Assembly (NCBI GenBank): GCA_964508555.1
Contig: CAZDUF010000004.1
Coordinates: 1 to 30,566, forward strand
Reading direction: 5' to 3'
DNA from: an uncultured Planctomycetales bacterium
Lineage (GTDB): Bacteria; Omnitrophota; Gorgyraeia; Gygaellales; Profunditerraquicolaceae
DNA length: 30,566 nt
This document shows, piece by piece, positions 2,362-20,556 of this stretch. The position numbers were made by a program, and so were the translations under genes. The notes beneath the pieces were generated by a model, which did not search any database, was not told the origin of the DNA, and was given only the letters and a program-made list of their open reading frames with translations. Each line of letters opens with the position of its first letter. The first letter of the stretch is position 1.

Positions 2362-3960
2362 TTATCTCTTCCAGAACAGAATCTTCTCTTGTAACTCGGA
2401 TACCGTTGCCTCATCCCCTACCGTCCATATCCACTGCGCAGGCGTCGGGTCTTCTTCATCGATCGAAATCGCGCCGTCTGCGTTCAAATCATAACCGCTT
2501 TTCACGTAAAAATAATGGTTGGCGTATACAAGATCCGTAAAGGTTGCTTCGCGCTGCAATGTCCAGGCTGACCAAGACTGGTTATCGATACGCACGGCGA
2601 AAAGCGCGCCCTGTCTGCTCGATTCGAACGTAAACGCGGCCTGCGTTTCCACTGTCGCTGCCGAAGGACCGCTGATAATGCGCGTGTCAGGTGTCAGCCT
2701 GTGCAACGTTATCTGATCGGTATATGCGCCGGAAATATTACCCGCAGCATCCAGAAATTTGACAAATACCGTCTTGACACCGTCGACGTCAGGCTCCAGC
2801 ACCAGCCAGCTCGTAATCACCGTCTGGTAAGGATACGGATGATTCATCTCGGTGTCGAAAATACCGTCGTTGGAGATGACCACAGACGCCACACTCGAGA
2901 CTGCGTCCGAGGCGTCAAGGTGCAGCGAAACGTACGCGGAATGCGACACCGGAGCTCCGGCATTGATACTGAATGTCCCTGACGGCGGCTGTGAATCGGC
3001 GACAAACTCCCAGGCTTGAGAAGCTGCATTGCCCGCCATATCGCGCGCCGTAACCACGACGGTATTCTTGCCTTCCGCCAGATATTCCTCAGAACCCGAG
3101 GAGAATATTCCGGTCTCTGTGTCGTATGATCCGCTCACTTGCCTGCCGTTGAGCTCCATGCGCACGCTGGTCGGGTCAACGCCGGAATCGGCATCAGCGA
3201 TACGGCAGGCTACCGCGATTTTATTATCTGAAAGCAGCGCTCCGGACGCGGGACCCAACTGATTCACGTATGGCCCGAGGCGGTCGATCCAGATCTCAAA
3301 CGAACGCACGCTGTCCATTTCGGGAATCCCTGATGAATAAAACGGCGCGACGTACATCACATGCCGGCCGTTTGCGATAGCGCCGTCGGCAAACTGGAAC
3401 TGCGGGGCGTACGTATCAATCGTGCCGTCAGGGCTGGCATCAACCGCTACGGAGAAACCGTCCACCAGCGCAGCCGGTTCAACAATAATGCCCCAGGAAA
3501 TATACGGGTCGTCATCTTTCTGCCAGGTTTTCTCAGGTATAAGCTCACCCAACACCTCGGCCCGGCAGATGATTTCGCTGATCAGCCAGTCTTTGTCCTC
3601 TCCCAGAACCTCATCCATCCCGTATATGAGCTGCACCTGCCCTGCCTGCAGGCTGAACTGGCCGCTGGAAGCGGATGAAAGCGGGATGAGACCTTCTCCG
3701 ATAATCGACATCACCATCATATGGCTCGATGAGGTTGTCGGCCCTCCGCCGTTGGCGAAAGCGACCGCATCGATCTGGAACGAACCTCCGGTCATCTCAA
3801 CTGCCTCAACCTGCGCATAACAAAACAACATCGCGAATATAAAGCATCCGATTGAAATCAATAGGGTTTTGCTCCAGCTTGAATCTCCCAATAAAAAACC
3901 CGATATCCGCTTTTCGTGGATATCGGGTAGCCCCGCGGGGCGCCGCCTGTGTTTTTTCAT
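2362..3960 (-). CDS. Secreted Ig-like/fibronectin-like multi-domain protein
   Basis: ATG at 3960 overlaps the upstream stop (ATGA), so it is preferred over the track start at 4065. Signal peptide ending AQVEA; beta-sandwich motifs (IDRLGP, NTVVVTARDMAGN, DSQPPSGTFSINAGA, VFVKFLDAAGN, TPDTRIISGP). Confidence 0.75.
   Translation of the reverse strand: MKKHRRRPAGLPDIHEKRISGFLLGDSSWSKTLLISIGCFIFAMLFCYAQVEAVEMTGGSFQIDAVAFANGGGPTTSSSHMMVMSIIGEGLIPLSSASSGQFSLQAGQVQLIYGMDEVLGEDKDWLISEIICRAEVLGELIPEKTWQKDDDPYISWGIIVEPAALVDGFSVAVDASPDGTIDTYAPQFQFADGAIANGRHVMYVAPFYSSGIPEMDSVRSFEIWIDRLGPYVNQLGPASGALLSDNKIAVACRIADADSGVDPTSVRMELNGRQVSGSYDTETGIFSSGSEEYLAEGKNTVVVTARDMAGNAASQAWEFVADSQPPSGTFSINAGAPVSHSAYVSLHLDASDAVSSVASVVISNDGIFDTEMNHPYPYQTVITSWLVLEPDVDGVKTVFVKFLDAAGNISGAYTDQITLHRLTPDTRIISGPSAATVETQAAFTFESSRQGALFAVRIDNQSWSAWTLQREATFTDLVYANHYFYVKSGYDLNADGAISIDEEDPTPAQWIWTVGDEATVSELQEKILFWKR
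3898..3928 (-). terminator. Intrinsic-terminator-like hairpin located inside the 5' end of the Ig-protein gene
   Basis: Perfect 11-bp stem ACCCGATATCC (3898-3908) / GGATATCGGGT (3918-3928). On the minus strand it runs into TTTTTT. Confidence 0.5.
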
Positions 3961-17888: not shown

Positions 17889-17930
17889 CAAAGGACCGGT
17901 TCAAACCCGGTGGTTAAACCGGTCCCTTTG
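17889..17930 (-). terminator. Intrinsic terminator after the lipoprotein pair
   Basis: GGACCGGTT (17893-17901) / AACCGGTCC (17917-17925), extendable with CAAA/TTTG; followed by TTTGCTTTAGTT on the minus strand. Confidence 0.7.
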
Positions 17931-18938: not shown

Positions 18939-18961
18939 CCGCGAAGTTTTTATCTTCGCGG
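18939..18961 (-). terminator. Intrinsic terminator after the V4R-HAMP pair
   Basis: CCGCGAAG (18939-18946) / CTTCGCGG (18954-18961), then GCCTTTTT on the minus strand. Confidence 0.7.
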
Positions 18962-18979: not shown

Positions 18980-19522
18980 TTAATACTTACCGGGACGACC
19001 CTGCTCCTTCAGAAGACTATTGATCTCTTTCTTCAGCTCAATCATGCGTAATTCACGGCCCGTCATAAGCGTGTTCATGGCCTTGAGACTATCCCGCTCT
19101 TTCTTTAATTCCGCGTTCTTTTCAGTTATCTCTCTTTGGGCTTTATCCAAAGCAATGACCATCGCGTTAAACGCCCGGGAAAAATCCCCCATAAAATCAA
19201 CCCGCTGATTGAAATCTCCCGCGGCAATTTGCTCAACCTGCCACGTCAGGTGTCTCAGGTTGGATTGCAACTGCCTGAAAGGAGACGCCAAGAAGTTCTT
19301 TGCCCCAATGTCAATGTCCAGATTGCCTTGGGCCAAAGGGATAATAACGTCTTTGACCTCAGACAATGAATCCCTGAGCTTATTGACCATTTCACAAAGC
19401 TGCCTCATTTCGTCTTCGGCGTATCCGGAGACGTCAATCCTACCAGGGATTTCCCCGCTCAGCAAGCGATAAAGAACCTCAGTAACTTTGTCAATTTTCT
19501 CTTTATAGACCTGTATATCCAT
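18980..19522 (-). CDS. Soluble HAMP/coiled-coil signalling protein without an output domain
   Basis: HAMP-like repeats (LAQGNLDIDI; VEQIAAGDFNQRVDFMGDFSRAFNAMV), coiled coil, C-terminal GRELRMIELKKE motif; no TM, GGDEF or HisKA seen. Confidence 0.7.
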   Translation of the reverse strand: MDIQVYKEKIDKVTEVLYRLLSGEIPGRIDVSGYAEDEMRQLCEMVNKLRDSLSEVKDVIIPLAQGNLDIDIGAKNFLASPFRQLQSNLRHLTWQVEQIAAGDFNQRVDFMGDFSRAFNAMVIALDKAQREITEKNAELKKERDSLKAMNTLMTGRELRMIELKKEINSLLKEQGRPGKY

Positions 19523-19527
19523 AGCGA

Positions 19528-20052
19528 TTACTTCATATTCACGGCAAACCTGCAGACTCTATCACCTGATGCCCAGCAATCAACTTCTTTTGCGTGAAAT
19601 TCCTTCCCGGTGTAAGCATCGAGGATCCCGGCGATAAATCCCTCGTCATATTCACATATTGTCTCCCCACTCAACGGCAGACCAGAACAATCCAAATCCT
19701 CTGCAACGGTAAGAATAAAACGCATTTTATCAGTATCGGCCTTTTCTATCTTCAGAATCCCGATATTCAAATCTTTTAGTTTCCGCTGAAGGTCAGCGAT
19801 AAACTCATTAAAACTCAGTTTTGTATCCAACATATTCCTGCAAAACTCTTTGCCGGCTAATCTCCCGGCATTGGTAAATATTTCTTTGCCTTTCGCCGCG
19901 TCAAACTGTTTAATCAGCTCATCCCTGAGAGTGTATTGCATAAGTCTATACACTGTGACCGGACACAACGGGCCGAGATTCGGTCGTCCTTGTTCAATAT
20001 TTCCCAAGTCTTTCCACGAAAACGTATTTTCGTCGCGTTCTTCCTTAAACAT
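19528..20052 (-). CDS. V4R (4-vinyl reductase) domain protein
   Basis: GRPNLG, YRLMQY, AGRLAG, EDLDCSG, ICEYDEGFIAGIL, KEVDCWASGDRVCRF; ATG 20052 has a GAGGG RBS. Confidence 0.85.
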   Translation of the reverse strand: MFKEERDENTFSWKDLGNIEQGRPNLGPLCPVTVYRLMQYTLRDELIKQFDAAKGKEIFTNAGRLAGKEFCRNMLDTKLSFNEFIADLQRKLKDLNIGILKIEKADTDKMRFILTVAEDLDCSGLPLSGETICEYDEGFIAGILDAYTGKEFHAKEVDCWASGDRVCRFAVNMK

Positions 20053-20106
20053 AAGCCTGCCCTCTTTCAGTCTGAAACTCGCCCATGACACTGCACCTCA
20101 ATTCTG

Positions 20107-20220
20107 TCCCCCGCTCGATCGGAGATCTCTCGGCGGTGACGCCGAGGTGTCAGTAGTGTGCTGGCTCGTGAAACGCTCGAGTTCGTTACCCCTGCACGGT
20201 CGGAGACCGAGCAGGGGTCC
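20107..20220 (-). ncRNA. Putative structured RNA / cis-regulatory leader of the V4R gene, family not recognised
   Basis: Non-coding stretch with several GC-rich hairpins: 20188-20195/20211-20218 with inner 20197-20201/20205-20209; 20129-20135/20140-20146; 20165-20168/20178-20181. Confidence 0.4.
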
Positions 20221-20240
20221 GTTTTTCTTTTCTAGATGTT

Positions 20241-20280
20241 GCGACAAAACCGCACCAGTTCTGGATGGCGGTTTTGTCGC
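20241..20280. repeat. Perfect 13-bp inverted repeat downstream of tRNA-Ser
   Basis: GCGACAAAACCGC (20241-20253) / GCGGTTTTGTCGC (20268-20280); no following U-tract on either strand. Confidence 0.75.
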
Positions 20281-20295
20281 GCGTCGGAAGAAAAA

Positions 20296-20384
20296 CGGAG
20301 AGGCTGGGATTTGAACCCAGGGACCCGGTTTCCCAGGTCAACTCATTAGCAGTGAGCTCCGTTCGACCACTCCGGCACCTCTCC
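20296..20384 (-). tRNA. tRNA-Ser(GCT)
   Basis: GGAGAGG/CCTCTCC acceptor stem, anticodon loop CTGCTAA, long variable arm, TTCAAAT T-loop, G discriminator; CCA not encoded. Confidence 0.95.
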
Positions 20385-20481
20385 TCAATTTTTCCCGCTC
20401 TATTCGATAGAGGAAAAATTGATCCCGCCGAGTGCGTTAAAATTTTCCGCAGAAAATTTTGACGCATTTTACGAGGCGGGG
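20385..20481. repeat. Two stacked long hairpins immediately 5' of tRNA-Ser
   Basis: TCAATTTTTC (20385-20394) / GAAAAATTGA (20413-20422) enclosing CTCTAT/ATAGAG; TGCGTTAAAATTTT / AAAATTTTGACGCA (20433-20466) enclosed by CCCGCC/GGCGGG. Confidence 0.7.
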
Positions 20482-20556
20482 AAATTTTCCCTCGTTTAGG
20501 CAAGGGGCGATAGTTATACGTCCAAATTCGCAAGCAAACCTACATCAATGACTGCA

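What the first reader, a model, noticed from the sequence alone, without database searches (positions are those of the whole stretch)
20107..20220. Unidentified multi-hairpin element with alternative pairings ahead of the V4R operon
Seen (minus strand): GGACCCCTGCTCGGTCTCCGACCGTGCAGGGGTAACGAACTCGAGCGTTTCACGAGCCAGCACACTACTGACACCTCGGCGTCACCGCCGAGAGATCTCCGATCGAGCGGGGGAC. It has at least three stems, and the GCTCG in the first stem can alternatively pair with either of two downstream CGAGC copies (plus-strand 20164-20168, 20113-20117). It ends about 55 nt before the V4R start. I do not recognise it as c-di-GMP-I/II, fluoride, SRP, 6S or a small ribozyme. Inference: a candidate new riboswitch or ncRNA, or the structured end of a mobile element.
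Basis: partly seen in the sequence, partly recalled or inferred. Interest (0 to 1): 0.65.

Follow-up and report, generated by a model that had tools for sequence, protein, structure and literature searches.

The report
Opposite-strand terminator plus orphan hairpins, not riboswitch
The hairpin cluster in front of the V4R gene is real, but its strongest stem looks like an ordinary transcription terminator on the opposite strand, and the rest is single-copy spacer found in no relative examined, so nothing supports a new riboswitch.

Summary
The sequence and its stems are at the stated coordinates. Hairpin 1 (20188-20218, 13 bp with 1 mismatch, about -23 kcal/mol) is the strongest short-loop hairpin in the 30.5-kb contig; shuffles give 0.025 such hairpins per window. 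The riboswitch reading finds no support.

- **No known family:** Rfam gives only the two tRNAs.
- **No homologue found:** about 55 V4R orthologue loci, 20 Omnitrophota tadA/tRNA-Ser loci, phage and plasmid records and two metagenome scans gave nothing. A covariance model over 411 kb matched only itself.
- **Weak bistability:** the predicted switch depends on where the RNA is cut, and 5-20% of shuffles show it.

On the + strand hairpin 1 is followed by CCG-TTTTTCTTTTCT. It is the only + strand terminator-like site on a contig whose plausible genes all lie on the minus strand. It faces tRNA-Ser(GCT), which is followed by the same 12-mer TCCGTTTTTCTT.

A related organism (about 82-86% identical in coding pieces) keeps the T-tract exactly. 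Its hairpin is kept through paired changes. Beyond the hairpin the relative's contig no longer aligns.

The stretch after tRNA-Ser(GCT) varies between strains in other Omnitrophota, and serine recombinase genes sit there in two lineages.

Best reading: a composite of an opposite-strand terminator and lineage-specific spacer at a variable junction. What the terminator stops is unknown.

The parts
20296..20384 (-). tRNA-Ser(GCT) gene. Its last 4 nt and the next 8 nt form TCCGTTTTTCTT (20288-20299), a T-tract directly after the acceptor stem.
   Evidence: ARAGORN; Rfam tRNA 55.8 bits; 12-mer search
20240..20280 (.). Long perfect hairpin, GCGACAAAACCGC / GCGGTTTTGTCGC: 13 bp, 14-nt loop, -24.5 kcal/mol. 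It lies between the two facing T-tracts. In the relative its stems are unchanged and differences fall in the loop and the flanking spacer.
   Evidence: variant positions 20260, 20265, 20267 and 20281-20285
20219..20233 (+). CCG-TTTTTCTTTTCT tail of the + strand terminator (read on the minus strand it is the 'A-rich spacer'). It is 100% identical in the related organism. The 12-mer TCCGTTTTTCTT (20218-20229) is an exact inverted copy of the one after tRNA-Ser.
   Evidence: no differences at 20214-20259
20188..20218 (+). Hairpin 1, the stem-loop of a Rho-independent terminator reading on the + strand: ACCCCTGCACGGTC GGA GACCGAGCAGGGGT, 13 pairs with 1 mismatch, -23.2 kcal/mol.
   Evidence: The relative has CCCCATCGCGTC AGTT GACGCGATGGGG at the same place.
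20165..20181 (-). It contains an XhoI-type palindrome, CTCGAG. No evidence of function.
20129..20146 (.). Hairpin 3, CTCGGCG TCAC CGCCGAG: 7 G+C-rich pairs, -12.9 kcal/mol, no T-tract on either strand.
20108..20117 (-). CGAGCGGGGG, complementary (with one G-U) to the 5' arm of hairpin 1 (20208-20217). This is the source of the predicted alternative long-range helix.
   Evidence: boundary dependence
20045..20099 (-). GAGGTG (20094-20099), then 7 nt, then a 13-codon ORF (ATG 20086 to TAA 20045). Its stop overlaps the V4R start out of frame. The V4R gene's own AGAGGG Shine-Dalgarno lies inside it. Possibly chance.
   Evidence: read; not conserved upstream of V4R orthologues
19528..20052 (-). V4R-domain gene, 43% G+C against 54% for the contig. 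It is followed by a HAMP protein gene (18980-19522) and a minus-strand hairpin, -12 kcal/mol, followed by GCC-TTTTT, read here as a terminator (18939-18961).
   Evidence: Pfam

Best explanation
The 114-nt 'element' is a composite, not one RNA device.

(1) Hairpin 1 (20188-20218) with the conserved tail CCG-TTTTTCTTTTCT (20219-20233) is a canonical Rho-independent terminator on the + strand. It points away from V4R and toward tRNA-Ser(GCT). With the T-tract that follows the tRNA on the minus strand and the long hairpin between them, it forms a pair of facing terminators. This arrangement would keep + strand (antisense) transcription out of the tRNA gene.

(2) The remaining 80 nt (20107-20187: hairpin 3, weak stems, and a 3' segment that happens to complement hairpin 1) is single-copy, lineage-specific spacer. 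It lies at the point where similarity to the nearest relative ends. It is either the untranslated leader of the low-GC V4R-HAMP pair or the tail of whatever + strand transcript the terminator stops.

Shown: the hairpins, the T-tract, their retention in one relative, the single-copy status and the absence of homologues. Inferred: that termination actually occurs, what is terminated, and that the spacer has no ligand-sensing role.
For: - **Terminator anatomy:** the stem has 13 pairs and -23 kcal/mol. After a 3-nt gap come 9 T in 12 nt, on the + strand only. The minus-strand hairpin behind the HAMP gene on this contig has the same 3-nt gap geometry...CGCGG-GCC-TTTTT.
- **Whole-contig scan:** a scan allowing one stem mismatch finds three sites. 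Two are on the minus strand at gene ends. Hairpin 1 is the only one on the + strand. Shuffles give 0.85 sites per window and none above 9 pairs.
- **Facing T-tracts:** TCCGTTTTTCTT occurs exactly twice in the window, in inverted orientation, after the tRNA and after hairpin 1. Shuffles give 0.21.
- **Relative in runs X1 and X2:** it is identical over 20214-20259. At the hairpin position it has CCCCATCGCGTC-AGTT-GACGCGATGGGG. Under the alignment that requires the fewest changes (placement of the 1-bp deletion is ambiguous), that is two double-compensatory pairs, the mismatch repaired, one base pair deleted on both arms and no disruptive change, at -26.9 kcal/mol.
- **No U-tract on the minus strand:** none follows any of the element's hairpins.
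- **No homologue:** none matched Rfam, and none turned up in any related locus.
- **Single copy:** no second copy in the source metagenome's contigs at 80% or more.
Against: - No + strand gene or recognisable sigma-70 promoter lies upstream of the terminator. All plausible genes of the contig are on the minus strand, so what it terminates is unknown.
- The hairpin conservation rests on a single relative and on only 30 nt of its sequence.
- The 3-nt gap between stem and T-run is longer than in typical terminators.
- No transcript data exist.
- The 10-bp complementarity between the two ends of the element has no role in this reading and is put down to chance.
Confidence: 0.55

Rival explanations
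1. Plus-strand small RNA. A roughly 110-200-nt transcript starts near or inside the V4R start region. It contains hairpin 3 and ends at the hairpin 1 terminator. Being fully complementary to the V4R 5' UTR and start codon, it would act as a cis-antisense regulator of V4R-HAMP.
For: A strong + strand terminator with nothing annotated to terminate. The + strand fold of the 114-mer is slightly more stable (-53.7 against -48.4 kcal/mol). A weak promoter-like site, TTCCCA-18-TATTTT at 20001-20030 on the + strand, would give a roughly 195-nt RNA. The terminator is conserved in a relative.
Against: The only promoter candidate scores 8 of 12, and the consensus scan found none. The + strand fold z-score is only -1.6. 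The body upstream of the terminator does not align with the relative at 80% or more. No RNA data were found.
Confidence: 0.15
2. Recombination scar or edge of an acquired block. The V4R-HAMP pair was inserted or swapped in next to the tRNA-Ser trailer. The element is junction sequence left from the previous occupant, for example the terminator and 3' end of a lost convergent gene.
For: Similarity to the relative stops at 20214. V4R is 43% and HAMP 46% G+C against 54% for the contig, and the element is 65%. The genome-collection V4R hits are labelled Deltaproteobacteria/Desulfobacterota-type, not Omnitrophota. In other Omnitrophota, contigs with identical TadA differ right after tRNA-Ser(GCT), and serine recombinase genes sit there (L056/L057, L072). 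Convergent genes follow the tRNA in L056 and L068.
Against: The window has no integrase or recombinase next to the element and no direct repeat of the tRNA 3' end. The break lies about 80 nt beyond the tRNA, not at its 3' end. At about 85% coding identity, noncoding sequence may simply have diverged beyond alignment without any insertion.
Confidence: 0.2
3. Minus-strand cis-regulatory leader. A bistable RNA (riboswitch, thermosensor or protein-binding leader) switches between hairpin 1 and the long-range helix to control V4R-HAMP expression.
For: The ensemble splits 48/52 between two mutually exclusive helices in the isolated 114-mer. CCUGCUC in the 5' arm could also pair with GGGCAGG, which overlaps the V4R Shine-Dalgarno (read). 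The position, 55 nt upstream of the start, is appropriate.
Against: No Rfam match even at E of 10 or less. Nothing similar lies upstream of about 55 V4R orthologue loci, which have varied and unrelated upstream regions. No terminator-type expression platform exists on this strand. The bistability vanishes with other boundaries and appears in 5-20% of shuffles. No literature link between V4R and riboswitches was found.
Confidence: 0.07
4. A copy of a repeated palindromic element (REP, BIME or MITE-like), with CCCCTGCTCG / CGAGCGGGGG as terminal inverted repeats.
For: G+C-rich hairpins in an intergenic region, with 10-nt inverted termini.
Against: No second copy exists in the 30.5-kb contig. No other contig of the source metagenome matches 20120-20213 at 80% or more. 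The break with the relative lies inside, not outside, the putative terminal repeat.
Confidence: 0.03

Closest known systems
Rho-independent (intrinsic) transcription terminators, including facing or bidirectional pairs between convergent units
   Same: A G+C-rich stem of 12-13 bp with a short loop, followed within 3 nt by a T-rich run. The stem sequence drifts while pairing is kept, and the T-tract is conserved. A second T-tract faces it from the tRNA side.
   Different: No annotated transcription unit ends at it, since every plausible gene on the contig is on the other strand. There is a 3-nt G+C gap before the T-run. Termination has not been measured.
Riboswitch expression platforms (terminator/antiterminator or SD-sequestering switches)
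   Same: Two mutually exclusive helices share one strand, placed in a 5' region about 55 nt before a start codon.
   Different: No conserved aptamer, no Rfam match, no homologues, no U-tract on the mRNA strand, and the predicted switch is not robust to the choice of boundaries.
tRNA-gene-adjacent integration hotspots (genomic islands and integrative elements at tRNA 3' ends)
   Same: Content directly downstream of tRNA-Ser(GCT) differs between close strains in several Omnitrophota. Serine recombinase genes occur there in relatives. The adjacent V4R-HAMP genes have atypically low G+C.
   Different: The window has no recombinase or integrase at this site and no duplicated tRNA 3' end. The break is about 80 nt past the tRNA.
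REP/BIME and MITE-type extragenic palindromes
   Same: A cluster of G+C-rich imperfect palindromes in an intergenic spacer.
   Different: Single copy wherever it could be counted, and no target-site duplication.

Membership tests
Any described RNA family (Rfam 15: riboswitches, leaders, sRNAs, ribozymes) | Match to a curated covariance model | tested here: not met
   At gathering thresholds only the two tRNAs matched. At E of 10 or less on 19900-20500, nothing overlapped 20107-20220 except a 14.5-bit miRNA chance hit at its edge.
Riboswitch / cis-regulatory leader | Conserved structured domain upstream of homologous genes in other organisms, with covariation | tested here: not met
   No similarity upstream of 48 genome-collection V4R loci and 8 closer ones. 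Covariance model R1 over 411 kb found only itself.
Riboswitch / cis-regulatory leader | Expression platform on the mRNA strand (terminator with U-tract, or SD sequestration) | tested here: inconclusive
   No U-tract follows any hairpin on the minus strand. A 7-bp pairing of CCUGCUC with the SD region is possible but is not in the predicted MFE.
Intrinsic terminator | Stable G+C-rich stem-loop immediately followed by a T/U-rich tract | tested here: met
   On the + strand: 13 pairs, -23.2 kcal/mol, then CCG-TTTTTCTTTTCT.
Intrinsic terminator | Structure kept through compensatory change in relatives | tested here: met
   One relative only. Under the fewest-change alignment: two double-compensatory pairs, one repaired mismatch, one paired deletion, and the T-tract identical.
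Intrinsic terminator | Lies at the 3' end of a transcription unit and stops RNA polymerase | not testable with these tools
   No + strand gene or clear promoter lies upstream. No RNA runs hold the stretch.
REP / MITE repeat family | Many copies per genome | tested here: not met
   One copy in the contig. No other matching contig in the source run at 80% or more.
tRNA-targeting integrative element end (attL/attR) | Direct repeat of the tRNA 3' end bounding the island, with an integrase nearby | tested here: not met
   The 22-mer at up to 3 mismatches and the 12-mer at up to 2 mismatches give no meaningful second copy. Pfam on the neighbouring genes shows no recombinase.
Integron attC site | R'' RYYYAAC and R' GTTRRRY core sites bounding an imperfect palindrome | tested here: not met
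   Read directly from the sequence: neither core motif is at the ends of the element.

The most novel reading that the evidence does not exclude
The conserved + strand terminator closes an unannotated small RNA that overlaps the V4R 5' UTR and start codon in antisense. This would make it a cis-antisense regulator of a V4R-HAMP sensory pair, in an uncultured Omnitrophota bacterium where I know of no described sRNA.
Probability: 0.12. Interest if true: 0.45.

Novelty: new member of a known kind. Interest (0 to 1): 0.18.

Why it matters
It matters mostly as a correction. A stretch that looks like a bistable regulatory RNA on one strand is better explained by an ordinary terminator on the other strand, next to orphan spacer. 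Such candidates should be read on both strands before riboswitch follow-up.

A minor point of interest is that the flank of tRNA-Ser(GCT) appears to be a recurrent variable or integration site in Omnitrophota, guarded by facing terminators. If the terminator does close an antisense RNA, it would be an early example of RNA regulation in this uncultured phylum.

Tried and rejected
- **Whole-genome tools:** Copy number in the full genome and genome-wide terminator statistics could not be obtained.
- **Metagenome scans:** two exact-pattern scans, one for hairpin 1 and one for the conserved spacer, returned nothing. Identical JGI contigs do exist (L051-L053), so that collection evidently lacks these samples.
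- **V4R as an anchor:** 48 genome-collection loci and the closest database relatives (75-78% identity) show unrelated upstream regions.
- **TadA as an anchor:** this gave only identical copies or relatives at 77% or less. In those relatives the sequence after tRNA-Ser is unrelated.
- **The close relative:** I could read only 30 nt beyond the break in runs X1 and X2. Its 296-nt contig could not be fetched.
- **Other runs:** 20 more runs hold only the tRNA.
- **Phage and plasmid collections:** no match in phages and only two short chance-level hits in plasmids.
- **RNA runs:** none found.
- **Promoters:** sigma-70 scans on both strands found nothing convincing. Sigma-54-like GG-N10-GC matches read by eye were weak and badly placed.
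- **Small ORFs:** those in the spacer look spurious.
- **Integron attC, MITE with terminal repeats, and tRNA att duplication:** considered and rejected on sequence features.

Full report
**Observation**

The quoted minus-strand sequence is present. The coordinates are right to within one base: the quoted string is 115 nt. Three stems exist.
- Hairpin 1, 20188-20218: 13 pairs with one U·U mismatch and a 3-nt loop.
- A weak 4-bp stem, 20165-20181.
- Hairpin 3, 20129-20146: 7 G+C-rich pairs.

CGAGC occurs three times, not two. The significant alternative pairing is a 10-bp helix between 20208-20217 and 20108-20117. In the isolated 114-mer it takes about half of the ensemble.

Hairpin 1 is well beyond chance, with 0.025 hairpins of that size per shuffled window. 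It is the strongest short-loop hairpin on the contig.

The bistability is not beyond chance. It drops from 18 two-partner positions to between 0 and 8 when the boundaries move by a few to a hundred nucleotides. It also appears in 5% (at 18 or more positions) to 20% (at 8 or more) of dinucleotide shuffles.

**Context**

All plausible genes of the 30.5-kb contig lie on the minus strand. In transcription order they are:
- an M50 peptidase;
- tRNA-Arg(ACG);
- a CpaF-type ATPase;
- tadA;
- tRNA-Ser(GCT), 20296-20384;
- a perfect 13-bp hairpin, 20240-20280;
- an A-rich spacer;
- the element;
- a V4R gene (ATG 20052);
- a HAMP protein gene;
- a terminator at 18939-18961.

The best TadA matches are labelled Omnitrophota. 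The order tRNA-Arg(ACG), tadA, tRNA-Ser(GCT), with or without the ATPase, recurs in other Omnitrophota contigs.

**Search for relatives of the element**

- Rfam gave only the tRNAs, even at E of 10 or less.
- The V4R protein has thousands of relatives, the closest at 78% identity. Their upstream regions are varied and show no similarity to the element. This covers 48 genome-collection loci and eight closer metagenomic ones.
- Three JGI contigs carry the region at 100% identity, so they add no variation.
- Phage and plasmid collections and two metagenome pattern scans gave nothing.
- A covariance model of the element, run over 411 kb of fetched loci, found only itself. It also matched the palindromic hairpin 1 on the other strand.
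- In the contigs of the source run, nothing else matches 20120-20213 at 80% or more, so the element is single copy there.
- No RNA run holds the stretch.

**The other strand**

Read on the + strand, hairpin 1 is followed by CCG-TTTTTCTTTTCT.

I scanned the whole contig for stems of 7 or more pairs (one mismatch allowed) followed within 3 nt by at least 6 T in 8. This found three sites. Two lie on the minus strand behind genes (3898-3928 and 17893-17925). Hairpin 1 is the only one on the + strand. Shuffled windows give 0.85 sites on average, never with more than 9 pairs.

The minus-strand hairpin behind the HAMP gene has the same geometry of a 3-nt G+C gap and then T5, so the contig offers a local precedent for this spacing.

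The 12-mer TCCGTTTTTCTT occurs exactly twice in the window, in inverted orientation. One copy runs off the 3' end of tRNA-Ser on the minus strand. The other runs off hairpin 1 on the + strand, and the long hairpin lies between them. Shuffles give 0.21 occurrences, and 1 of 100 shuffles reaches two.

None of the element's hairpins has a U-tract after it on the minus strand.

**One informative relative**

Runs X1 (a 296-nt contig) and X2 (a 151-nt contig) contain an organism whose coding pieces are about 82-86% identical to the window. Its tRNA-Ser trailer aligns down to 20214, with no differences at 20214-20259. The differences fall only in the loop of the long hairpin and in the spacer beside the tRNA.

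Beyond 20214 the aligner gives up. The 30 loose letters read (+ strand) TCGCTG-CCCCATCGCGTC-AGTT-GACGCGATGGGG, directly joined to the conserved TCCGTTTTTCTTTTCT. This is a perfect 12-bp hairpin of -26.9 kcal/mol at the same position.

Compared with the window's hairpin, under the alignment that needs the fewest changes (the placement of the 1-bp deletion is ambiguous), it shows:
- two pairs changed on both sides;
- the mismatch repaired;
- one base pair deleted on both arms;
- a different loop;
- no disruptive change.

A conserved T-tract with a drifting but always paired stem is the signature of an intrinsic terminator. This rests on one relative and 30 nt, so it is suggestive rather than conclusive.

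**The flank of tRNA-Ser(GCT) is a variable site**

- Contigs encoding the identical TadA protein P0124 differ immediately after the tRNA (L056, L058, L060). L056 and L057 carry a large serine recombinase gene there.
- Contigs sharing TadA P0133 agree through a Y-shaped hairpin structure after the tRNA and then diverge. L072 carries a gene there whose N-terminus (MRYFIYARKSTDDEDRQ) I read as serine-recombinase-like; it had no Pfam annotation on record.
- L068 and L071 have a second copy of the tRNA 3' end, CCAGCCTCTCCG, about 150 nt downstream, and a convergent small gene.

So unrelated multi-hairpin stretches followed by strain-specific content are common at this position in the phylum.

In the window, V4R (43% G+C) and HAMP (46%) are below the contig mean of 54%, while the element is at 65%. 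The genome-collection V4R relatives are labelled Deltaproteobacteria/Desulfobacterota-type rather than Omnitrophota. This fits an acquired gene pair. However, no recombinase or tRNA-end duplication is present in the window.

**Interpretation**

I take the element to be composite.

Hairpin 1 and the spacer form a + strand intrinsic terminator that faces the tRNA gene. The likely role is to insulate the tRNA from antisense transcription, or it may be the surviving terminator of a former convergent gene.

The 80 nt from 20107 to 20187 is orphan, single-copy sequence at the edge of a variable block. Whether it is transcribed as the V4R leader, as the tail of a + strand RNA, or both, cannot be told without RNA data.

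The main weakness is that nothing annotated, and no convincing promoter, lies upstream of the terminator on the + strand. That leaves room for an unannotated cis-antisense sRNA, which I put at about 0.12-0.15. The minus-strand riboswitch reading gets about 0.07 and a repeat element about 0.03.

**Limits**

- The relative's contig could not be fetched beyond 30 nt.
- No transcript evidence exists.
- A literature search found no link between V4R genes and riboswitches, and nothing on Omnitrophota tRNA-linked recombinases.

Noticed in passing
window 20288-20299 (-) and 20218-20229 (+): An exact 12-mer, TCCGTTTTTCTT, occurs twice in inverted orientation around the long hairpin at 20240-20280. One copy runs off the tRNA-Ser 3' end and the other runs off hairpin 1. 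Shuffles give 0.21 occurrences.
   Followed up: partly
L056/L057 2128-3807, L072 4394-5134; compare L058, L060, L073, L075: In other Omnitrophota, contigs with identical TadA differ right after tRNA-Ser(GCT). L056/L057 carry a Pfam-annotated serine recombinase gene there, and L072 a gene whose N-terminus looks serine-recombinase-like by eye. This points to a recurrent integration or variable site. Run X3 also has a contig with the L056-type junction.
   Followed up: partly
L068 about 3558-3710 (same in L071): A second copy of the tRNA-Ser 3' end (GACCAGCCTCTCCG) lies about 150 nt downstream of the tRNA. It looks like an att-type scar. A convergent 77-aa gene follows.
   Followed up: no
L072/L073/L075, 25-90 nt after tRNA-Ser: A Y-shaped structure, GGAGCGC[AAGCCCCC-TATA-GGGGGCTT][CCGCC...GGCGG]GCGCTC, followed by TTTT. 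It is conserved among these strains up to the point where they diverge. Its architecture is analogous to the window's spacer, but the sequence is unrelated.
   Followed up: no
window 20385-20556: The 172-nt spacer between tadA and tRNA-Ser is about 25 nt in L054 and about 80 nt in L056. Here it holds a 14-bp A+T-rich palindrome (20433-20466) and repeated GGGAAAATTT(C/T)CCC-like motifs. It may be the tRNA promoter or operator region.
   Followed up: no
window 20045-20099 (-): GAGGTG, then 7 nt, then a 13-codon ORF (MGEFQTERGQAYV). Its stop overlaps the V4R ATG out of frame. It could be a coupled leader peptide or chance, and it is not seen upstream of V4R orthologues.
   Followed up: partly
L062 3833-4003 vs L064 3831-4003: V4R orthologues paired with HisKA kinases share a roughly 170-nt upstream block at 84% identity. 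It includes GTGCCGATATTGCAAG...TATGGCATAAAC and is unrelated to the window's element. It may be a promoter or regulatory region of that V4R-kinase module.
   Followed up: no
window 19528-20052: The V4R gene's genome-collection relatives are labelled Deltaproteobacteria/Desulfobacterota-type (up to 67%), and the closest metagenomic ones (up to 78%) sit in quite different neighbourhoods: gas-vesicle genes, response regulators, HisKA kinases. With its 43% G+C, this suggests horizontal acquisition by this Omnitrophota genome.
   Followed up: partly
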